Shown here: piece after piece, positions 1,184 to 63,163 of the stretch | Numbering within the stretch: the stretch's first letter is position 1 | Layout of the letters: every line of letters begins with the position of its first letter | The notes under the pieces: generated by a model | Seen by the model: the letters and a program-made list of their open reading frames with translations, nothing else | Database searches by the model: none | Told to the model about the DNA's origin: nothing | Program-made: the position numbers and the translations under genes | Source of the DNA: Candidatus Curtissbacteria bacterium | GTDB taxonomy: Bacteria > Patescibacteriota > Microgenomatia > Curtissbacterales > GWA2-41-24 | DNA: 64,000 nucleotides | Reading direction: 5' to 3' | NCBI GenBank assembly: GCA_030647775.1 | Contig: JAUSJC010000005.1 | Coordinates: forward strand, 3,911 to 67,910

Positions 1184-1672
1184 TTACAAAGCTTCAAGTT
1201 GTCTTTTTCGTCTAGCAATAACCTTACTGGCCTGACTCTTCCTCTGCCAAGCACTAGAACCGTACATTTTCTGCGGCGAAAGCTGGATCAAAAGTTCCTC
1301 GAGGTTATTCCAAAACTTCTGGTTTTTCTCTTGGGCAAGAACGTGTTTAATTGCTTTCTGGTAACCTTGCGCTCCGGTTGAAATTTGTCTATGCACCATA
1401 CCAACAGTCGACTTAGAAACTTTTAACGTTTCATCTATCTCTTCATAATTAAATCCGCGGGCAAGAAGAACAGCAATCGCAAGTCTTTTGGAAAGCATCA
1501 CTTGTTCAGTATTAGAAAGCAGACTTTGCAGAAATTCTTTTATCCCAAGAGGGGTCTTAAGAGTAGCCAAGTAATCCCGAAATATCTCAAAAATCCGTTC
1601 TTCGATCTGGGGATTTATCTTCCTTTTTGACACTCGTCCCATCCTATACCAATTATTCGAATAATCGAACAA
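1184..1672 (-). CDS. TrpR/YerC/YecD-like small DNA-binding protein (paralog 1 of 3)
   Basis: Motif LSKRLAIAVLLARGFNYEEIDETLKVSKSTVGMV matches the Trp-repressor-like YerC/YecD HTH family. The ORF-track start is TTG, so the true start is probably the internal ATG (MGRVSKRK...) near 1642. Confidence 0.6.
   Translation of the reverse strand: MFDYSNNWYRMGRVSKRKINPQIEERIFEIFRDYLATLKTPLGIKEFLQSLLSNTEQVMLSKRLAIAVLLARGFNYEEIDETLKVSKSTVGMVHRQISTGAQGYQKAIKHVLAQEKNQKFWNNLEELLIQLSPQKMYGSSAWQRKSQASKVIARRKRQLEAL
1652..1669. promoter_or_regulatory. palindrome ATTATTCGAATAATCGAA in the promoter/5' end of the TrpR-like gene (putative operator)
   Basis: Same palindromic core as at 1161-1180; lies immediately upstream of the probable true start codon. 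Confidence 0.5.
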
Positions 1673-2737: not shown

Positions 2738-2838
2738 GCCTGCCCGTCAAAGCCTTGGCGTCGGCGGGTCTTTCGTCGTTAGGCGACCTAATTTTAGGCC
2801 CGCAGTCCGAAGGACGAGGACCGCATGGCACTGTATAT
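2738..2838. repeat. intergenic composite of two dispersed repeat families (GC-rich GCCTGCCCGNCAAAGCCTTGGNGTCGGCGGG unit plus CCGCAG-hairpin-GACGAGGACCGCATGGCACTGTATAT unit)
   Basis: The first unit recurs at 40376-40410 and the second at 5301-5343, 11761-11800, 15349-15402 and other sites (see findings). Confidence 0.7.
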
Positions 2839-2956: not shown

Positions 2957-3544
2957 ATGACAACGGAAGGCCATCCACTTTATCTAACAGTTAATCATAA
3001 TCTTAGCTTCGAGGAATGGGCCCAGCTTAGGAGTTTAAGGGCAGCAAGAATAAGAACGTTCGTTGTCCCAAAACTCGACAGGGATCTTCAAAGACTTAAT
3101 AGCCCTGAGGCAACTACATTTGTACAAGAAGCAACACAAGAGCTTGAAGCAATATGCCAAACGAGATTCGTAAGCGGAGACAGGCCTTCTCCAATTCCCA
3201 TTTTTGCTATTCTCCAAGAAGACAATGGTACTCACAGATACAATCTAAATGACGGCGGGGGAGAACATAGCGAAGCAACTTTAGCCGCAGCTCAATTCTT
3301 AATTGAAGCACTCTGCCCAGAGCTCGGCTTAGACATGAACAATGATCTAGAAACATTACTCCAAAAAGCCCAAGCCGCAGAAAAGCTGGGCTACGGCGAC
3401 GCTTATAATATTGATGCTTATAATATTGATAAGGTTTCTCAACCAAATCACGTACAATTTTCGACAATTTTACCAGGAATAACAATCGGATTCAGTTTCT
3501 ATCCTTCAGGAAGATACATCTCTCTAGCGTGGGAAGTATATTAA
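2957..3544 (+). CDS. hypothetical protein
   Basis: ORF track; no recognisable motifs; contains DAYNIDAYNID tandem peptide. Confidence 0.45.
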   Translation: MTTEGHPLYLTVNHNLSFEEWAQLRSLRAARIRTFVVPKLDRDLQRLNSPEATTFVQEATQELEAICQTRFVSGDRPSPIPIFAILQEDNGTHRYNLNDGGGEHSEATLAAAQFLIEALCPELGLDMNNDLETLLQKAQAAEKLGYGDAYNIDAYNIDKVSQPNHVQFSTILPGITIGFSFYPSGRYISLAWEVY

Positions 3545-4322: not shown

Positions 4323-4742
4323 ATGAGAAAAGAAACAAAGAATGATTATGTAAGGTTTTTGCTAAATGAATACGATCTAATGGTAACCGGGCGGCCGCAG
4401 GCTTTAGCATTTAATCAAAATCGCAAAGCTCTTAATCTAAGATTAGTTGATTTTCGCCCGTTATATCTTGGGGTAAATATCTTCGCCGACATGTATGGCG
4501 ACTCTACCTTTCTCGCTCAAGCAATCCCGGTTGAAACACACATTCCCGAAGATACCGATGAAATTCCGGTTAACTCCTTGGGAATCCATGACCTTATTAG
4601 AAAACTCCGCAGTCACATTAATACTAATTATCCTGACTTTGCCAATTTACCCATCTGTGTTTACTTATCACACCGGGATTTCTTAAGACACAACCCAAGG
4701 TATGCTATTGCACCTTACCGTAGACTCCGAAAAACAGCCTAA
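4323..4742 (+). CDS. hypothetical protein
   Basis: ORF track only. Confidence 0.4.
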   Translation: MRKETKNDYVRFLLNEYDLMVTGRPQALAFNQNRKALNLRLVDFRPLYLGVNIFADMYGDSTFLAQAIPVETHIPEDTDEIPVNSLGIHDLIRKLRSHINTNYPDFANLPICVYLSHRDFLRHNPRYAIAPYRRLRKTA

Positions 4743-4774
4743 AATCATCATTGTTTAAAGCTCCAAGCCCGCCA

Positions 4775-5195
4775 AAGGCCCCAGAACGGCTTTTTACTGT
4801 CCTAATAGGACAAACAAGTCGTTTACTACTTGCTCAATCAGCAACAAAAAGCGGCTAAAAAAATCTTTACATAACAAATGGGGGATAAATGCATCAGAAT
4901 AGTCAAAGTGCAAAGGTCAAAGTGCAAAGGTCAAAAGAGAGTATTATAACTTTAATTGAAAGTTAAAGTGGAAAATTGAAAATTTCTTATTTTTAGCTAT
5001 TCTCTCCCTCTCACGCTCACTTTGCGTCGCAAAAGTATCATTGTGCGACGCATTACATAAATAAAGATATACCTCCTTTGGGGAGTATAAGCGGACAAAT
5101 TTCGACAATTTATAAAACCATTAACCATTAACTATTTACCATTTACTGCCCTAAAGGCCCCTTCCCCGGAAAATCTAAAAAGCCGTTCTTGCCCT
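4775..5195. repeat. non-coding element bounded by ~18-bp inverted termini (CCCCAGAACGGCTTTTT ... AAAAAGCCGTTCTTGCCC), containing tandem 14-mers and a 9-bp-stem hairpin; MITE-like
   Basis: Termini are reverse complements of each other (4780-4799 vs 5178-5195); tandem AGTGCAAAGGTCAA x2 at 4906-4936; hairpin TGCGTCGCA-N12-TGCGACGCA at 5021-5050; no ORF. Confidence 0.5.
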
Positions 5196-5691
5196 TAGCA
5201 GTCTTTTCCTAGTCCCGCCAGAAGTTTTTGACTACCGACACATTGGAGAGTAAATAGGCCGATAACACTCTACTCTAAAGCGCTGTATAGCAAAAAACCG
5301 TTAGGCCCGCAGTCCGAGCGGAGCGAAGGACGAGGACCGCAAGACTCAACCACCATTTACATTTCTGTTCTGGTCGCTTTGGACCTGAACGAAATCATAT
5401 TGTTGAGTCTTATAATATCTATTTTCACGCTTTTCAACCCGCATATTTTCACGGAATACTATAACTCTATCAAACTATATCACCACTTACTACCACCCCA
5501 CTCTCCCACTCCTCTGCTTTTAAGAGAATTTTTTGAGGCTAATTTGAAGCTAAATCGAAGCTAACTATTAACCATTGACTATCTACTATTAACCCCCGAT
5601 ACCCACTTCCCCGAGAAAAACTATGGGCTTTATTCTTGGCTCCTTAATTGGAAATTGAAAATTTGAAATTGGAAATTCCCGCGAGCGGGGT

Positions 5692-6501
5692 CTATCCTCC
5701 CCATCTCGTGGCAAAGATAATAACCAAAAATACAATTCCGGCTACGCCAAGATGCTCCCAAACAGCCCTTGGCTTCATTTTCCCGGCAAAATCAAGCTGA
5801 GCTAAGGCCAGAAGTACGTACATAATAGTCGCCACCGCCAAAGCTTCAAAAATCGGCGCAATCGGCCAGAAAGAAAAAACCAGCGTGATCTGGAGCGTTA
5901 AATAAGTAAAAATGGCGGCATAATTAAAGACTCTTCTTGAAATAAAATCCTCAAGCTCATTTGCCCACAACCCGACTAGATAAAGCGGCAAAACGATCCC
6001 GGCTACACCCAACATCGTCCAGTAAAAAGCCAGATGCAGAGAAAATAGGACGTTAGCCAGGAAAAAAGTCGAAATCAGTGAAAATAATACGCCAACCGCG
6101 TTGGCCGCCCGAAGCAGTGCAATCGTCCTGATCGCCGCAACGTTGTAGATATTGGAAGTCAGCATTAAAAGATAAACGGAAATCCCAAATACTACCGCAA
6201 ACGGCAGACGCGTCAACCACCTGACGGGTAGCAAAAAGTAAAAAAGCGAAGCCCCGGCTACAAAATAAACCGGCAATAAGAGAAGAAGAAAGTATTTCAC
6301 CCCTGAAAGTTCACCCCAAAGGCTAAAGGCGGCCAGAAAAAGTGTGGCCAGCGCTAAAATTCCGATAATCTGGAAGCGCAACCCCTCCGGCACGGTCTGG
6401 ATTGTCACCAAAATCACCGTCAGAAAAAAAGACATCAGAATAAACTTTTGCCTTTTGGTAATTTCGTACGAAGTTACTTTTCTGAAAAAACTGCTGCCCA
6501 T
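5692..6501 (-). CDS. polytopic integral membrane protein, hypothetical
   Basis: Seven or more hydrophobic helices; no catalytic motif recognised. Confidence 0.5.
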   Translation of the reverse strand: MGSSFFRKVTSYEITKRQKFILMSFFLTVILVTIQTVPEGLRFQIIGILALATLFLAAFSLWGELSGVKYFLLLLLPVYFVAGASLFYFLLPVRWLTRLPFAVVFGISVYLLMLTSNIYNVAAIRTIALLRAANAVGVLFSLISTFFLANVLFSLHLAFYWTMLGVAGIVLPLYLVGLWANELEDFISRRVFNYAAIFTYLTLQITLVFSFWPIAPIFEALAVATIMYVLLALAQLDFAGKMKPRAVWEHLGVAGIVFLVIIFATRWGG

Positions 6502-6524: not shown

Positions 6525-7106
6525 CTAACGCCTAACGTTTTTTGTCTTCACCTTAGTCTTTAGTCCTTCGTCGTTAGTCGCTGTTTTAATAACATGGCAA
6601 ATCGCCACAGCCAGTGCATCCGCCGCGTCGTCAATATAACCCTTCGCGGGCTTTGCCAGTTTATGTTTATGCAAATGGCGCATTACGTGCTTTTGAATCT
6701 CCTTCTTGTCTGATTTGCCGCTGCCTGTCACAGTCAGTTTGACCGAAAGCCCCTGATACTCAAATATCGGCACGCGATTGTTGTAACCGGCAATAGTTGA
6801 AAGCACTACTCCCCTTGCCTGCCCCACAGTCATTGCTGTTCTCGAGTTAATGCCAAAGAACAATTGCTCGATCGCTATACAATCCGGTTTATATCGTTTG
6901 AGAAGTACTTTTAAATCTTTGCCAATCGAAAAAAGCCTCATGGGCATCGCCTGTTCTTTGGGGGTAACAATACAGCCGTATTCGATAAGAGTTAGGCCAT
7001 TGGTCCTGAGCGAAGTCGAAGGACCGTTGTTCTTGGAACTGGGCTCTTTTTTTACCACGCCGTAACCGGTTGTCGCCGTTCCCGGATCTATACCAAAAAT
7101 TATCAT
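6525..7106 (-). CDS. ruvC: crossover junction endodeoxyribonuclease RuvC (C-terminal tail extended through a repeat element)
   Basis: MIIFGIDPGTATTGYGVV...IAIEQLFFGINSRTAM matches the RuvC catalytic N-terminus; the last ~20 codons overlap the CGTTAGTC/TGACTAA repeat cluster. Confidence 0.85.
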   Translation of the reverse strand: MIIFGIDPGTATTGYGVVKKEPSSKNNGPSTSLRTNGLTLIEYGCIVTPKEQAMPMRLFSIGKDLKVLLKRYKPDCIAIEQLFFGINSRTAMTVGQARGVVLSTIAGYNNRVPIFEYQGLSVKLTVTGSGKSDKKEIQKHVMRHLHKHKLAKPAKGYIDDAADALAVAICHVIKTATNDEGLKTKVKTKNVRR

Positions 7107-11242: not shown

Positions 11243-11296
11243 ATATACAGTGCCATGCGGTTCTCGTCCCGATGGATATCGGGGCTGCGGGCCTAG
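11243..11296 (-). repeat. family-A structured repeat (reverse orientation)
   Basis: ATATACAGTGCCATGCGGTTCTCGTC-hairpin(CCCGAT/ATCGGG)-GCTGCGGGCC is the reverse complement of the CCGCAG...CGCATGGCACTGTATAT consensus. Confidence 0.65.
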
Positions 11297-11751
11297 ATCC
11301 TATGGAAATATCTTTAGCAAAACCCCAAGACGCCAACGCGATTCTAGTCCTACAAACCCAAATTTACCGTGTAGAATCGCTTGCCCCAAACGCGAAAGAG
11401 CTGCTTTTGGCGCTAATCGACGCTGATTATTGTAGTGTTATTGTAGCCAGAGAAAACCTGCCTGCCGGCAAGGCAGGCGGCAAGGTCGTCGGCTCTGCTT
11501 TTCTCTTTTACCTTCCCCTGCCCGCCCACGGCAAAAATTTTGCATATCTGGAAGCAGTAGTCGTCGACGAAAAATCTCGGGGCAAAGGCATCGGTACCGC
11601 TATTTCCAAAAAGGCCATCGAGCTTGCCCGCGCCAACAATTGCTATAAAATGATCTTCACTTCCGGCTTCGACCGCGAAAAAATCCACAAACTCTACGAA
11701 AACCTGGGTTTCGCCAAATGGGGCTACGAATTCAGGATGAACCTAGACTAA
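11272..11751 (+). CDS. GNAT family N-acetyltransferase
   Basis: Acetyl-CoA binding motif VVDEKSRGKGIGTAISKKAIELAR; the start is probably the internal Met (MEISLAK) near 11302, because the 5' end overlaps a repeat. Confidence 0.8.
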   Translation: MDIGAAGLDPMEISLAKPQDANAILVLQTQIYRVESLAPNAKELLLALIDADYCSVIVARENLPAGKAGGKVVGSAFLFYLPLPAHGKNFAYLEAVVVDEKSRGKGIGTAISKKAIELARANNCYKMIFTSGFDREKIHKLYENLGFAKWGYEFRMNLD

Positions 11752-11760
11752 ACTGGTAAT

Positions 11761-11800
11761 TTTAGGCGCGCAGTCCGAAAGACGAGCACCGCAAGCTCAC
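11761..11800 (+). repeat. family-A structured repeat (forward orientation)
   Basis: GGCGCGCAGTCCGAAAGACGAGCACCGCAAG; forms an inverted pair with the copy at 11243-11296 around the GNAT gene. Confidence 0.65.
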
Positions 11801-14549: not shown

Positions 14550-15251
14550 GTGTCCATGGCGAAGATCCTAAAAGAGCAGTGGCAAAACATCACAGATTAC
14601 GACGTTTTAGCCCAGCTTGCCGCCCAAGCCGCCCTTTCTTCTAACTGGCAGGAAGCTACCCGAATAAACGAAAAAATCCTCAAAGCCAACAAAGACAATG
14701 TCGAAGCCCTTAACCGCTTAGCGCGTGCCATGGTTTGCATGGGCGAATTGCCAAAAGCCCAAAAGCTCTATAAAAAAGTTCTGGAAATTGACCCTTATAA
14801 CATAATCGCCCGCAAAAATTTTGATAAAATTTCCATGTCCGGCCCGACTTCCCTCAAAACAAATGGTCAAAAAACTCCCGTTCATACGGTCAACGTTTCA
14901 AATCTTTTCCTCTCCGAACCCGGCAAAACCAAAGTAATTAATCTCCTAAATCTGGCGGCCCCAAGCGCCTTGGCTATCTTAAATTTTGGAGAACAAGTCA
15001 GCATAAAACCCAAAAATCATTCGGTTGTCATCACCACTACCGAGGGAGTCTACCTTGGAGCCCTTCCCGACGATCTTGCGCATAAATTAATCGCCTTCAT
15101 TGCCGGAGGGAATGAATACGAAGCCTATATCAAAGCAGTAACATCCAAAAGTTTGACTATTTTTATTAGGGAAGTCTTGCGCTCGTCGCGCTTTACAAAT
15201 CAGCCCTCGTTCCAAGCCTCACAAATATCATATTTTGATTCCGAAAAATAA
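14550..15251 (+). CDS. TPR-repeat protein, hypothetical
   Basis: TPR-like helical repeats (EALNRLARAMVCMGELPKAQKLYKKVLEIDPYN). Confidence 0.5.
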   Translation: MSMAKILKEQWQNITDYDVLAQLAAQAALSSNWQEATRINEKILKANKDNVEALNRLARAMVCMGELPKAQKLYKKVLEIDPYNIIARKNFDKISMSGPTSLKTNGQKTPVHTVNVSNLFLSEPGKTKVINLLNLAAPSALAILNFGEQVSIKPKNHSVVITTTEGVYLGALPDDLAHKLIAFIAGGNEYEAYIKAVTSKSLTIFIREVLRSSRFTNQPSFQASQISYFDSEK

Positions 15252-15254
15252 GGA

Positions 15255-15410
15255 AGCAAAACAAGCTCTCTTATTACGACTCTGAAGAATGAAGAGGCGC
15301 AATACGCTCTCGTCTTTCGATAGCGAAGAATGAGCTATAAGCTCTCTTTAGCCCCGCAGTGCTGAGTTTATCGAAGCACGAGGAGCGCATGGCACTGTAT
15401 ATATTTTGAT
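15255..15410. repeat. convergent-gene spacer packed with family-C (AAGCTCTCTTAT) and family-A repeat units
   Basis: AACAAGCTCTCTTAT at 15260-15274, TAAGCTCTCTTTA at ~15335, family-A unit with hairpin GTGCT...AGCAC at 15349-15402. Confidence 0.6.
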
Positions 15411-15424
15411 AGCGAGGAATAACC

Positions 15425-15817
15425 CTAGTCCATTTTCCTTCGAAGATCCCTTACTGAAATTTCTCCGGACAAAATTTCGCGCCCTTGGCCGCCGCCGGCT
15501 ACCTCATTTATTATTTCTTCCGGCGAGCTCTCTGTTGAGCCCAAATCATCATATCCACCAACTTCCCATGGAAACGGTCCTACGCTACCGATTACAGCTT
15601 CTGCGTCGTCTTGCTCTGCATCTTGGTTCTCACTACCAGCCAGCACCGGCTCACCCGCCAATAATACTTCTTGCTCCGCCGCCTCACTTTCGGGCGTATC
15701 TTGGCTTATTGGCACCAAATACGACTCTTCTCGCTCGTCCTGCTCACGAACCAAGGAAAATAGGGCAATAATAAAAGAGGCAAAAAGAATAACTACACCA
15801 ACTATGACAAAAAACAT
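15425..15817 (-). CDS. small membrane-anchored acidic protein, hypothetical
   Basis: N-terminal TM helix; D/E-rich C-terminus; start abuts the stop of the upstream LytR_C gene. Confidence 0.4.
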   Translation of the reverse strand: MFFVIVGVVILFASFIIALFSLVREQDEREESYLVPISQDTPESEAAEQEVLLAGEPVLAGSENQDAEQDDAEAVIGSVGPFPWEVGGYDDLGSTESSPEEIINEVAGGGQGREILSGEISVRDLRRKMD

Positions 15818-17054: not shown

Positions 17055-17099
17055 AATTACCCCTCCTCCGTCATCAAGGCTTTAATATCAGAGGAGCGC

Positions 17100-17500
17100 C
17101 TTTGGCATTTTAGATTCGAGCTTGCGAGAATCGCATGGCCCTGTATATGCCAAGGCGAACTGCTGATATAGTAACTTCCAAATAAACCCATGTTGATATT
17201 GTCATCCTGAACTGACTTTGTCATCCTGAACTTGGTTCAGGATCTATTTCAGGATCTAGATGCCGAAATATACAGTGCCATGCGCCCTCGTTTCGCTCGG
17301 GCTAAAGTTCGGCATGACATCTACATTTATTCTATCAAAGCTAAGGGAGCTTCAACAAGTAGAGAAGTTTTGCTCCGCAAAATCGTTTTTAAAATATCTT
17401 TAGACCCGCAGTTCTGCACTGCAGAACGAGGATCGCAAGATTTTTTGTAATCAGAAAATTTTTAGGCGCGCAACGAAGTGAGCACCGCAAAATATTTTGT
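17100..17500. repeat. array of at least four family-A repeat units in mixed orientations plus a family-C half unit
   Basis: Units at 17124-17148 (+, partial), 17266-17308 (-), 17401-17439 (+), 17461-17493 (+); the ORF 17232-17450 in the track lies entirely in repeats and is probably spurious. Confidence 0.65.
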
Positions 17501-63095: not shown

Positions 63096-63163
63096 TTCGA
63101 GTTTACGAGAAACAAGCCCTCTTCAGGCCCGCAGTTGAGTTTCGCTCAACGAAGACCGCAAGC
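63095..63163. repeat. family-C unit immediately followed by a family-A unit
   Basis: ATTTCGAGTTTACGAGAAACAAGCCCTCTT then GGCCCGCAGTTGAGTTTCGCTCAACGAAGACCGCAAG (hairpin GTTGAG/CTCAAC). Confidence 0.6.

What the first reader, a model, noticed from the sequence alone, without database searches (positions are those of the whole stretch)
2795..2838. Dispersed structured repeat family A with conserved flanks and covarying hairpins
At least ten copies of CCGCAG-[hairpin]-GA(G/A)GA(C/G)CGCA(AG|TGGCACTGTATAT) occur in intergenic DNA: 2795-2838, 5301-5343, 11761-11800, 15349-15402, 17124-17148, 17401-17439, 17461-17493 and 63124-63163 on the plus strand, plus 11243-11296 and 17266-17308 in reverse. The flanks are conserved while the central stem differs in sequence but stays self-complementary (GTCC/GGAC, GTGCT/AGCAC, GTTCTGCA/TGCAGAAC, GTTGAG/CTCAAC, CCCGAT/ATCGGG). 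This compensatory pattern is typical of a functional RNA or protein-recognised hairpin (REP-like element, small RNA family, or transposase/recombinase substrate). Two inverted copies bracket the GNAT gene (11243-11296 and 11761-11800), making a cassette-like arrangement.
Basis: seen in the sequence. Interest (0 to 1): 0.6.

Follow-up and report, generated by a model that had tools for sequence, protein, structure and literature searches.

The report
REP-like mobile hairpin repeats in Curtissbacteria
The ten repeats are real copies of a small hairpin-forming DNA element, similar to the REP repeats of other bacteria, which has recently been inserting itself between genes of an uncultured Candidatus Curtissbacteria (CPR) genome; it is neither a functional RNA family nor a gene cassette boundary.

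Summary
A covariance model finds exactly the ten listed copies and no others: eight score E<=1e-7, and two variants outside the training set score E=0.003 and 0.04.

The "conserved flanks" pair with each other. They form a lower stem (GGCCC/GGACC) with a fixed C.A mismatch, a GCA/GA internal loop and a closing G:C. Above this sits a variable upper hairpin. Covariation supports this structure.

There are two 3' versions:
- **Tail type:** hairpin plus GCATGGCACTGTAT. Five window copies.
- **AAG type:** the palindrome simply continues outward (CTT..AAG). Five window copies.

The window comes from a Candidatus Curtissbacteria MAG. The same elements occur in other Curtissbacteria and Patescibacteria MAGs and in groundwater metagenomes.

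In four syntenic relatives all five tail-type copies are absent. The empty sites show no target duplication, and host DNA always resumes at AT. Three AAG-type copies sit at the same positions in the relatives but carry different upper hairpins. The GNAT gene is syntenic in every relative, so it is not a cassette.

Best reading: a REP-like, non-autonomous mobile hairpin element, possibly moved as single-stranded DNA. No transposase was found.

The parts
2794..2836 (+). Tail-type family A copy: TTAG + GGCCC/GGACC lower stem + TCC-GAA-GGA upper hairpin + GCATGGCACTGTAT. Lies in the divergent gap between the xerC-like gene and a 195-aa ORF.
   Evidence: 46.4 bits. Absent in L154 and L158; host sequence resumes at ATTGTACGACGC.
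5301..5343 (+). AAG-type family A copy (upper part TCCGAGCGGAGCGAAGGA) inside a 950-nt conserved non-coding gap.
   Evidence: 40.3 bits. A diverged counterpart is present in L154 and absent in L158.
11245..11296 (-). Tail-type family A copy (upper hairpin CCCCGAT/ATCGGG), inserted between the divergent GNAT and sucC-like genes, 7 nt from the GNAT start codon.
   Evidence: 33.9 bits. Clean empty site in four relatives: CATAGGA|CC|ATTTTAAC against the window's CATAGGA|TC TAGG...CACTGTAT|ATTTTAAC.
11762..11795 (+). AAG-type family A copy with covaried lower stem GGCGC/GCACC, in the convergent gap after the GNAT gene.
   Evidence: 46 bits. Present at the same site in L154, L155, L156/L157 and L158, with different upper hairpins and compensatory lower-stem changes.
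15348..15400 (+). Tail-type family A copy with lower stem GCCCC/GGAGC and a second internal loop TGAG/CGAA, in a convergent gap.
   Evidence: 39.2 bits. Absent in L154, L155, L156 and L158. Flanked by imperfect duplicates of the TPR gene 3' end.
17110..17146 (+). Tail-type variant: TTAG + GATTC..GAATC hairpin + GCATGGCCCTGTAT. It sits in the loop of a larger palindrome (17085-17169).
   Evidence: I2; E=0.003, not in the training set. No tail-type copy in the relatives.
17270..17305 (-). Tail-type variant: TTAG + GCCC..GGGC hairpin + tail, in the loop of the palindrome GATGCCGAA/TTCGGCAT.
   Evidence: I7; E=0.037, not in the training set. The same arrangement occurs in L060/L073.
17400..17439 (+). 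AAG-type family A copy with lower stem GACCC/GGATC and upper hairpin TTCTGCA/TGCAGAA, followed by ATTTTTTG. Lies just beyond the 3' end of the kefB-like gene, on the opposite strand.
   Evidence: z -2.7; 37.8 bits. Orthologous copies in L154, L155, L156 and L158.
17462..17491 (+). Minimal AAG-type family A copy: lower stem GGCGC/GCACC, closing pair changed G:C to A:T, upper part CGAAG.
   Evidence: 31.2 bits. Orthologous copy in L154.
63123..63162 (+). AAG-type family A copy (tag CAG instead of TAG; upper hairpin TTGAG/CTCAA), between cysS and the next gene on the minus strand.
   Evidence: 36.5 bits. Not covered by the relatives fetched.

Best explanation
Family A is a REP-like, non-autonomous mobile DNA element of Candidatus Curtissbacteria and related Patescibacteria.

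**Structure of one copy**
- A short tag, (T)TAG.
- An imperfect palindrome: a 5-bp lower stem with a fixed C.A mismatch, a GCA/GA internal loop that probably forms sheared G.A pairs, and a closing G:C pair.
- An exchangeable upper hairpin, often a GNA or GNNA mini-hairpin such as GCGAAGC.
- In the young, active-looking form, a 14-nt single-stranded tail, GCATGGCACTGTAT.

**Shown**
- The stem is maintained by compensatory change.
- Tail-type copies are gained and lost between close relatives.
- They insert without target duplication, immediately 5' of AT.
- They form head-to-tail tandems and land in the loops of other palindromes.
- They lie preferentially on the C-rich strand.
- AAG-type copies are old residents kept at orthologous sites.

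**Inferred**
- The element moves as folded single-stranded DNA, cut by a hairpin-recognising enzyme of the HUH/Y1 kind (RAYT or IS200/IS605 TnpA-like) encoded elsewhere in the genome.
- On the complementary strand it reads WAT^ATACAGTGCCATGC-hairpin-CTA. That is insertion 3' of a short AT-rich target on the G-rich strand, presumably the lagging-strand template.
- Because the target resembles part of a -10 box (T^ATAAT), many copies end up just upstream of genes. Old copies in convergent gaps may serve as terminators or RNA stabilisers.
For: **Structure**
- 79.5% of cells are paired, against 28-47% when partners are slid. The covariation score is 0.234 against 0.105 in shuffles (0 of 500 reach it).
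- Pair 7:29 is GC38/AU5/CG1/GU2, pair 9:27 is CG41/GC2, pair 14:23 is GC42/AU2/CG2. The C.A mismatch is present in 43 of 47 copies.

**Gain and loss**
- No tail-type copy occurs in the four syntenic relatives L154-L158, which are 81-87% identical in the neighbouring protein. The same region of the window has five.
- Model counts are 9 copies in that ~20-kb stretch of the window against 2-3 in each relative locus of 13-21 kb.

**Exact empty sites**
- GGACC^ATTTTAAC, CTAATTT^ATTGTACG and CAATAT^ATAAT in L138 against L100.
- No target duplication and no terminal inverted repeats.

**Tandem, nested and re-inserted copies**
- Tandem junctions of the form CACTGTAT|TAG occur in L100 and L065.
- Partial re-insertions occur inside an existing tail in L051 compared with L086.
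- Copies sit in the loops of other palindromes.

**Conservation across genomes**
- The tail is identical in genomes whose flanking DNA is not alignable or is only ~70-78% identical.
- The same upper hairpin (TTCTGCA-N-TGCAGAA) appears at different loci, in different genomes and with both tail types.

**Strand bias**
- C-rich strand 36:13 overall. After removing syntenic duplicates, 28:12 (p=0.017), or 23:8 counted by locus group (p=0.011). The bias is independent of local gene orientation.

**Published REP features that match**
- Sub-families with complementary stem changes, non-complementary di- and trinucleotides between stem and loop, and variable self-complementary loops (PMC3733652).
- An imperfect palindrome with a bulge, preceded by a conserved motif, as the TnpAREP substrate (PMC8266576).
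Against: - No Y1/HUH transposase was found in 1.09 Mb of fetched DNA. This is weak, because such genes are single-copy and no complete genome was available.
- The tag is YTAG, not GTAG. Copies are mostly singletons rather than REPIN or BIME pairs.
- Hairpin sequences differ far more within one genome than in classical REP families.
- IS200/IS605-type elements normally need two hairpins.
- Only three clean empty sites define the target.
- The strand bias rests on GC skew of 3-14 kb contigs and on the assumption that the G-rich strand is the leading strand.
- Compensatory changes in palindromes can arise without selection, by intrastrand template switching or by gene conversion between copies.
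- The excess of copies pointing at a downstream gene (33 against 16) could equally reflect selection for promoter activity.
Confidence: 0.55

Rival explanations
1. The hairpins are functional RNA or transcription elements kept by selection. They would act as bidirectional terminators or 3'-end stabilisers in mRNAs, as proposed for many REPs, and their spread would be secondary.
For: - AAG-type copies at 11762, 17400 and 17462 are retained at orthologous gene 3' ends in all relatives, with compensatory changes.
- Several are followed by T runs: 17400 by AAGATTTTTTG, 5301 on the minus strand by AACGGTTTTTTG, and the L154 copies.
- G.U-compatible changes occur.
Against: - The consensus terminator scan calls none of the copies. 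Its total count equals the shuffle expectation (27 against 27.5).
- Tail-type copies have no T run and are missing from relatives.
- At the kefB-like gene the T run is on the strand opposite to the gene.
- Orientation relative to surrounding genes is 26:23.
Confidence: 0.25
2. The tail is a promoter module. TGTAT plus the following AT(A/T) would act as a -10 box, and the element would be a portable promoter (with an upstream insulating hairpin) driving the downstream gene, often as a leaderless mRNA.
For: - In at least 12 copies from related genomes the start codon lies 9-14 nt after TATAT with no Shine-Dalgarno sequence. The junction reads TATAAT or TATACT 6-11 nt before ATG or GTG.
- 33 copies point at a co-oriented downstream gene, against 16 that do not.
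- Copies lie upstream of rpsS, rplN, murA and a thioredoxin gene.
Against: - The AT of TATAT is host DNA. The empty site L138 already has TATATAAT at the same distance from the start codon, so the -10 box predates the element.
- There is no conserved -35, and the promoter scan calls none of the copies.
- At least 16 copies sit in convergent gaps or antisense to their neighbours, including window 15348 and 17110.
- The window genes downstream of 2794 and 11296 have their own better promoter matches closer to the start codon.
Confidence: 0.15
3. A structured small RNA or cis-regulatory RNA family transcribed from each copy.
For: - Covariation in the stems.
- A sub-set of copies is followed by a hairpin plus T run: L045/L108, L129, L089/L140 and L004.
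Against: - No Rfam match, even at relaxed thresholds.
- Copies are polymorphic between close relatives.
- The upper structure ranges from 5 to 43 nt.
- Copies are nested in other repeats.
- There is no orientation bias relative to surrounding genes.
Confidence: 0.05
4. Recombination sites of an integron-like or Xer-dependent cassette system, with the GNAT gene as a cassette.
For: - Copy 1 lies next to a tyrosine recombinase gene.
- The anatomy (conserved lower stem with mismatches plus a variable terminal structure) resembles folded attC sites.
- Two inverted copies flank the GNAT gene.
Against: - The recombinase scores as XerC/D (249 bits), not as an integron integrase (106 bits against a cut-off of 265). 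It is conserved in the relatives without the element.
- There are no RYYYAAC/GTTRRRY core sites.
- The GNAT gene is syntenic in all five relative loci.
- The two flanking copies are of different type and age.
Confidence: 0.02

Closest known systems
REP elements (GTAG-tagged palindromic repeats, especially the E. coli-type GTAG-3 family) and their RAYT/TnpAREP transposases
   Same: - Short, extragenic, multi-copy imperfect palindrome with a 4-nt tag ending in TAG at the foot of the stem.
- Fixed mismatch or bulge in the stem.
- Non-complementary residues between the stem and a variable self-complementary 'loop'.
- Sub-families with complementary stem changes.
- Several families per genome, arranged in mosaic clusters.
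- Old copies persist at gene 3' ends (PMC3733652, PMC8266576).
   Different: - The tag is (T/C/A)TAG, not GTAG.
- A conserved 14-nt single-stranded 3' tail is present.
- Upper hairpins are far more diverse within one genome.
- Copies are mostly singletons, not inverted pairs.
- Many copies sit upstream of genes.
- No RAYT has been identified.
- The host is a CPR bacterium; none of my literature searches found REPs reported from CPR.
IS200/IS605-family elements and their miniature derivatives (PATEs)
   Same: - No terminal inverted repeats and no target duplication.
- Insertion next to a short AT-rich target. Read on the other strand this is 3' of WAT, comparable to TTAC, TTAT or TTTAA (from my own knowledge).
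- A hairpin lies a fixed distance (about 14 nt) from the end.
- Strand bias consistent with targeting of the lagging-strand template (PMC6006769).
   Different: - One hairpin instead of a left and a right one.
- 35-55 nt instead of over 100 nt.
- No TnpA or TnpB nearby.
Correia elements (Neisseria MITEs) and other promoter-carrying MITEs
   Same: Small intergenic repeats that often sit at -10-like junctions upstream of genes and fold into hairpins in transcripts (from my own knowledge).
   Different: Correia elements have 26-bp terminal inverted repeats and a TA duplication. Neither is present here.
Integron attC sites
   Same: A folded single strand with conserved lower stems, fixed unpaired bases and a variable terminal structure.
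   Different: - No R''/R' core sites.
- No IntI.
- No cassette array.
- The flanked gene is not mobile.
Small dispersed repeats of Nostoc (Elhai et al. 2008; recalled, not read here)
   Same: Very small repeats that are nested in one another and in hairpins.
   Different: Different sequences and a different phylum. The comparison rests on memory only.

Membership tests
REP / RAYT system | Short, imperfect, extragenic palindrome present in many copies | tested here: met
   Ten copies in 64 kb, all intergenic. About 60 further loci were found in other genomes and metagenomes.
REP / RAYT system | Conserved GTAG tetranucleotide at the 5' foot of the hairpin | tested here: inconclusive
   The tag is TTAG, CTAG or ATAG: T at least 90%, A invariant, G at least 90%. 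The first base is not G. Published families tolerate GYAG, GTRG and similar variants, but not a change at the first base (PMC3733652).
REP / RAYT system | Sub-families with complementary stem changes, and mismatches or bulges in the stem | tested here: met
   three lower-stem pairs and both tested upper-stem pairs show changes on both sides (a sixth such pair is the usually mismatched 8:28, a seventh the outer pair 3:34). The C.A mismatch is fixed in 43 of 47 copies.
REP / RAYT system | A cognate Y1 transposase (RAYT) gene, usually flanked by REPs | tested here: inconclusive
   None was found in 1.09 Mb of fetched DNA, using a motif scan and a three-sequence IS200/IS605 TnpA profile that did not include a RAYT. 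Whole genomes could not be searched.
REP / RAYT system | Frequent inverted pairs (REPIN/BIME) | tested here: not met
   Copies are mostly singletons. There is one inward-facing pair (17110-17146 with 17270-17305) and a few head-to-tail tandems.
IS200/IS605-derived miniature element | No terminal inverted repeats and no target-site duplication | tested here: met
   Empty and filled sites compared.
IS200/IS605-derived miniature element | Sub-terminal hairpins at both ends | tested here: not met
   Each unit has a single hairpin.
IS200/IS605-derived miniature element | Insertion on one side of a specific short target, with a strand bias relative to replication | tested here: inconclusive
   Host DNA resumes at AT in all three empty sites and in 7 of 7 unbiased single copies. 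Bias to the C-rich strand is 28:12, p=0.017. Replication arms are unknown.
Classical MITE (DDE transposase) | Terminal inverted repeats and a target-site duplication | tested here: not met
   The ends, TTAGGCC... and ...CACTGTAT, are not inverted copies of each other. No duplication is seen at the empty sites.
Integron attC / cassette | RYYYAAC...GTTRRRY core sites, an IntI integrase, and mobile promoterless cassettes | tested here: not met
   No core sites in the copies. The integrase is below the integron-integrase cut-off. The GNAT gene is syntenic in all relatives.
Intrinsic terminator | G+C-rich hairpin directly followed by a T run at a gene 3' end | tested here: not met
   No copy is called by the scan. 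Tail-type copies lack a T run. A few AAG-type copies have one.
Known RNA families (Rfam 15) | Match to a curated covariance model | tested here: not met
   Only tRNA and rRNA reach gathering scores in the window and in 16 loci. Nothing meaningful appears at E up to 5.
Sigma-70 promoter | -35 and -10 hexamers at 16-18 nt spacing upstream of a gene | tested here: inconclusive
   The junction gives TATATN or TATAAT, but the -35 position falls in the variable hairpin. The scan calls none of the copies. The spacing to start codons fits leaderless genes in a subset.

The most novel reading that the evidence does not exclude
A previously undescribed class of single-hairpin, single-strand DNA transposable element, confined to Microgenomates/Curtissbacteria-like CPR bacteria. 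It would be 35-55 nt long and made of a tag, an exchangeable hairpin and a 14-nt tail. It would insert at T^AT, often inside -10 boxes, and so rewire promoters of leaderless genes in genomes of about 1 Mb. The enzyme that moves it would be unlike known RAYT or IS200 transposases, or would recognise one hairpin for both ends.
Probability: 0.25. Interest if true: 0.7.

Novelty: new variant of a known kind. Interest (0 to 1): 0.5.

Why it matters
CPR bacteria have tiny, streamlined genomes and are thought to carry few repeats. My literature searches found no REP-like or MITE-like family reported for them.

Here an element of about 40 nt makes up much of the intergenic DNA in a 20-kb stretch. It differs in copy number threefold or more between relatives that are more than 80% identical in a neighbouring protein. 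It lands within a few bases of start codons and -10 boxes.

If it moves as proposed, three things follow:
- It would be a compact system for studying hairpin-guided single-strand transposition.
- It would be a marker for strain-level population genetics of uncultured groundwater Curtissbacteria.
- It would be a possible source of promoter and terminator turnover.

For the annotation of this window, the repeats should be labelled as REP-like repeats, not as RNA genes or cassette boundaries.

Tried and rejected
- **Cyanobacterial origin (HIP1, Nostoc repeats).** There is no GCGATCGC in the window, and the window is a Curtissbacteria MAG.
- **Integron.** The integrase is Xer-like and the GNAT gene is syntenic.
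- **dif-like Xer site.** The tail resembles part of E. coli dif (CGCAT..TGTATA), but there is no second arm and the sequence after TATAT is not conserved.
- **Sigma-54 promoter.** TGGCAC is present, but the -12 TTGC is replaced by AT.
- **Mini-ORF on the reverse strand (MRSSSFGLRA*).** The frame is not kept in copies with other hairpin lengths.
- **In-frame start codon inside the tail (ATGGCACTG...).** It is in frame with the downstream ORF in 8 of 12 close cases, but this follows from the modal 10-nt spacing and is not general.
- **Tc1/IS630-like half element.** An unrelated repeat family with terminal inverted repeats, in Ga0307511/Ga0307514 contigs, ends in the same 17-mer. It shares nothing else, and the CPR copies have no partner end.
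- **K-turn, hammerhead and SRP domain IV resemblances.** The defining nucleotides are missing and there is no Rfam hit.
- **TIGR arrays.** The copies are dispersed, not arrayed.
- **Single-sequence folding.** z-scores near zero, so uninformative.
- **Extending the contig beyond the window through cysS.** No exact record was found.
- **Viral contigs.** One chance hit.
- **tRNA and Rfam scans of 60 and 16 loci.** No consistent RNA gene lies next to the copies.

Full report
**Observation.** The sequence at 2795-2838 reads TTAGGCCCGCAG-TCCGAAGGA-CGAGGACCGCATGGCACTGTATAT. The exact two-flank pattern occurs 4 times in the window and never in 100 shuffles. The 3' 17-mer occurs 5 times with up to 3 mismatches, against 0.07 expected. 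All ten listed sites show the stated features when printed side by side. I built a covariance model from 47 distinct copies taken from the window and from other genomes and ran it unfiltered over the 64 kb. It returns exactly these ten sites. Eight score E 1e-12 to 1e-7. Sites 17108-17138(+) and 17278-17307(-), which were not used to build the model, score E=0.003 and 0.037. The next hit is at E=0.8. The two weak sites are relatives rather than strict members: they share the tag and the tail but have a different short hairpin.

**Anatomy.** The "conserved flanks" pair with each other. With the upper hairpin collapsed, G-G-C-C-C on the 5' side pairs with G-G-A-C-C on the 3' side around a fixed C.A mismatch. 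Next comes an asymmetric internal loop (GCA against GA, compatible with sheared G.A pairs), then a closing G:C pair, and then the variable upper hairpin.

The formal count on 47 distinct copies gives the following:
- 79.5% of cells are paired, against 28-47% when the 3' partners are slid by 1-3 columns.
- The covariation score is 0.234 against 0.105 in shuffles (0 of 500 reach it).
- Changes on both sides occur at lower-stem pairs 7:29 (GC 38, AU 5, CG 1, GU 2) and 9:27 (CG 41, GC 2), and at the closing pair 14:23 (GC 42, AU 2, CG 2).
- The C.A mismatch is present in 43 of 47 copies.

Upper parts range from 5 to 43 nt. They are often GNA or GNNA mini-hairpins (CAGC-GAA-GCGAG, GCA, GTA, GCAA, GTAA, GCTA). 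Some contain a second internal loop, TGAG/CGAA. Single-copy folding energies are unremarkable, with z from -2.7 to +0.9, so the case for structure rests on covariation.

There are two 3' versions. In the AAG type the palindrome simply continues (CTT..AAG, ATCTT..AAGAT, ATTTT..AAAAT). The tail type carries GCATGGCACTGTAT. The same tag and tail also occur with quite different short hairpins, for example TTAGATCCAT-TTA-ATGGATC-GCATGG... These hairpins also covary.

**Host and distribution.** The sucC-like protein of the window is 100% identical to a protein of a Candidatus Curtissbacteria MAG on a 95,360-nt contig. A scan of one genome per species with the 17-mer found true members in three groups:
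- four Curtissbacteria MAGs;
- one other Patescibacteria MAG;
- three MAGs labelled Gammaproteobacteria in their records (a label I did not verify).

The remaining hits were single chance matches inside genes. A metagenome scan added about 60 true loci, mostly from groundwater. Between the window and these loci only the repeat is alignable at the DNA level. No Rfam family matches in the window, in 16 loci, or at relaxed thresholds. My literature searches found no report of REP-like or MITE-like repeats in CPR bacteria.

**Comparison with relatives.** Five syntenic loci from relatives were fetched: L154, L155, L156, L157 and L158. They are 81-87% identical in the sucC-like protein. Four results follow.

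1. The GNAT gene lies between the same response-regulator-like and sucC-like genes in every one. It is an ordinary resident gene, not a cassette.
2. The AAG-type copies at 11762, 17400 and 17462 have counterparts at the same positions in the relatives. These show compensatory lower-stem changes (GGCGC/GCACC against GGCCC/GGACC; closing G:C against C:G) and quite different upper hairpins.
3. No tail-type copy exists in any relative, while the window has five in the shared region.
   - The sucC-GNAT gap gives a clean empty site. The relatives read CATAGGA-CC-ATTTTAAC, and the window reads CATAGGA-TC-[TAGG...CACTGTAT]-ATTTTAAC.
   - At the xerC gap the host sequence resumes at ATTGTACGACGC in all three genomes.
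   - A third pair, L100 against L138/L063, shows two head-to-tail units inserted at CAATAT^ATAAT.
   - The unit is therefore (T)TAG...CACTGTAT. It has no inverted ends and makes no target duplication, and host DNA resumes at AT. The AT is present after 7 of 7 unbiased single copies.
4. Further dynamics are seen in other loci: a second unit added in L065 relative to L110; re-insertions into an existing tail in L051 relative to L086; a half-deleted copy in L052 relative to L099; and copies sitting in the loops of other palindromes.

The same upper hairpin (TTCTGCA-N-TGCAGAA) appears at different loci, in different genomes and with both tail types. This points to exchange between copies.

**Orientation.**
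- Relative to the bulk of genes in each locus, tail-type copies show no bias: 26 same, 23 opposite.
- Relative to GC skew, they lie on the C-rich strand 36:13. After keeping one locus per syntenic group the count is 28:12 (p=0.017), or 23:8 by group (p=0.011). This holds both where genes run with the element and where they run against it (18 and 18).
- Relative to the immediate neighbours, 33 copies point at a co-oriented downstream gene and 16 do not. The ORF calling here was crude.
- In a sub-set from related genomes the start codon follows TATAT by 9-14 nt with no Shine-Dalgarno sequence. This is the layout of a leaderless gene with a TATAAT or TATACT box. The empty site in L138 already has TATATAAT at that distance, so the box belongs to the host.

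**What it is not.**
- *Simple terminators.* No copy is called, and the scan total equals the shuffle expectation.
- *A complete sigma-70 promoter.* There is no -35 and no copy is called.
- *An integron.* The integrase is Xer-like and is conserved without the element. There are no core sites, and the GNAT gene is syntenic.
- *A classical MITE.* There are no terminal inverted repeats and no target duplication.
- *A known RNA.*

**Most likely mechanism.** The features shown fit a REP-like, non-autonomous mobile hairpin element: a tagged imperfect palindrome with a fixed mismatch, a conserved single-stranded tail, insertion without duplication next to a short AT-rich target, tandem and nested copies, lineage-specific gains, and a DNA-strand bias.

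Published REP families share several traits. They have sub-families with complementary stem changes, non-complementary residues between stem and loop, and variable self-complementary loops (PMC3733652). The E. coli REP nuclease needs an imperfect palindrome with a bulge, preceded by a conserved motif, in single-stranded form (PMC8266576). IS200/IS605 elements insert into the lagging-strand template (PMC6006769).

I infer that the copies move as folded single strands. Read on the complementary, G-rich strand, the unit is WAT^ATACAGTGCCATGC-hairpin-CTA. This is the IS200/IS605 style of insertion 3' of a short target.

This step is not shown. No Y1/HUH gene was found in 1.09 Mb of fetched DNA. 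The replication arms are unknown. One hairpin per unit is unusual.

Compensatory changes could also arise without selection, through intrastrand template switching or gene conversion. The old AAG-type copies at convergent gene ends may have been co-opted as terminators or stabilisers. Copies at -10 boxes may alter expression. In the window, the insertion now separates the GNAT start codon from the TAAAAT box that lies 6 nt upstream of it in the relatives.

**Limitations.**
- No complete genome was available.
- The ORF calling was crude.
- The 17-mer anchor biases the metagenome sample toward intact tails.
- Only three clean empty sites define the target.

Noticed in passing
window 4742-5692: A gap of about 950 nt without a convincing ORF. 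Long blocks of it are conserved in the relatives L154 and L158 (for example CGTCGCAAAAGTATCATTGTGCGACGCATTA, GGCCCCTTCCCCGGAAAATCTAAAAAG, TTTTCACGC..TTTTCACG, CCACTTATTAC..CACTCTCCTACTCCTC). There is no Rfam match even at E up to 1. It may encode a large unannotated non-coding RNA or several small genes.
   Followed up: partly
window 17194-17315; also L055-L060, L073, L041, L131: A second covarying palindrome family with a GTCAT...ATGAC-type foot (GTCATCCTGAAC/GTTCAGGAT, GATGCCGAA/TTCGGCATC, GTCATTCTGG/CCAGAATGAC). An empty version lies at 17223-17243. Tail-type elements sit in the loops of others.
   Followed up: partly
window 17085-17169; L002, L109, L111, L126, L151: A third recurring outer palindrome, ATATCAGAGGAGCGCC...GGCGAACTGCTGATAT. 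It encloses a tail-type element in several genomes.
   Followed up: no
L028 7340-7420, L031/L145, L017, L139: In one Patescibacteria genome and its relatives, the element is followed by a shared leader of about 60 nt (..CCACTAAGGGAAAGGGAATATTAAGG..hairpin..) that ends at the start codons of rpsS, rplN and murA. This could be a portable leader or a larger composite repeat.
   Followed up: no
L005, L090, L117, L142: A larger composite unit of about 130 nt (CTGGCTCCCCAATGTTAGTGCACTTAGGACGT + family A + tail + TTCCTAGAGACGGAGGAGCGGTTCGAGCCGATATTTTTGT) recurs in front of different genes, with different upper hairpins. In L117 a further insertion is nested inside it.
   Followed up: no
L050, L066, L069, L070, L072, L074, L076, L092, L095, L097, L112, L122, L123, L127, L137, L147, L152 (Ga0307511/Ga0307514 contigs): An unrelated repeat with terminal inverted repeats (...GAATCTCGAAGACTTTC CGCATGGCACTGTATAT; units of about 290 bp in L112 and L137) ends in exactly the same 17-mer. 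It shares nothing else with the CPR element, so this is probably chance, but both families end at this sequence.
   Followed up: partly
window 2957-3544: A 195-aa ORF with no Pfam or NCBIfam match lies between the xerC-like and amino-acid-kinase genes. In L154 and L158 those two genes are adjacent, and the conserved upstream region runs straight into the kinase gene. The ORF therefore looks like a lineage-specific insertion next to element copy 1.
   Followed up: partly
window 11297-11305 and L154-L158 GNAT upstream regions: In the relatives the GNAT start codon is preceded by TAAAAT plus 6 nt, a leaderless-type layout. In the window the 51-nt element is inserted exactly between that box and the start codon. 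The ORF caller's start at 11272 lies inside the element and is probably wrong.
   Followed up: partly
L102 about 7000-7100 (minus strand): A short tandem array of 63-nt units, each containing a family A hairpin (TAGGCCCGGAG-TCCGAAGGA-CGAGGACCGCAGAGGAC...).
   Followed up: no
L023 about 1500-1600 (minus strand): Six nucleotides after the tail begins a tRNA-like sequence (GCGCCCGCGTAGCTCAAC...CGCGGGCACC) with a long internal insertion. ARAGORN and Rfam do not call it.
   Followed up: no
window 15251-15425: Copy 15348-15400 is flanked by imperfect direct repeats of the 3' end of the upstream TPR gene (TTCGATAGCGAAGAATGAGC ... TTTGATAGCGAGGAATAACC). The relatives have one copy of this sequence and no element.
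   Followed up: no
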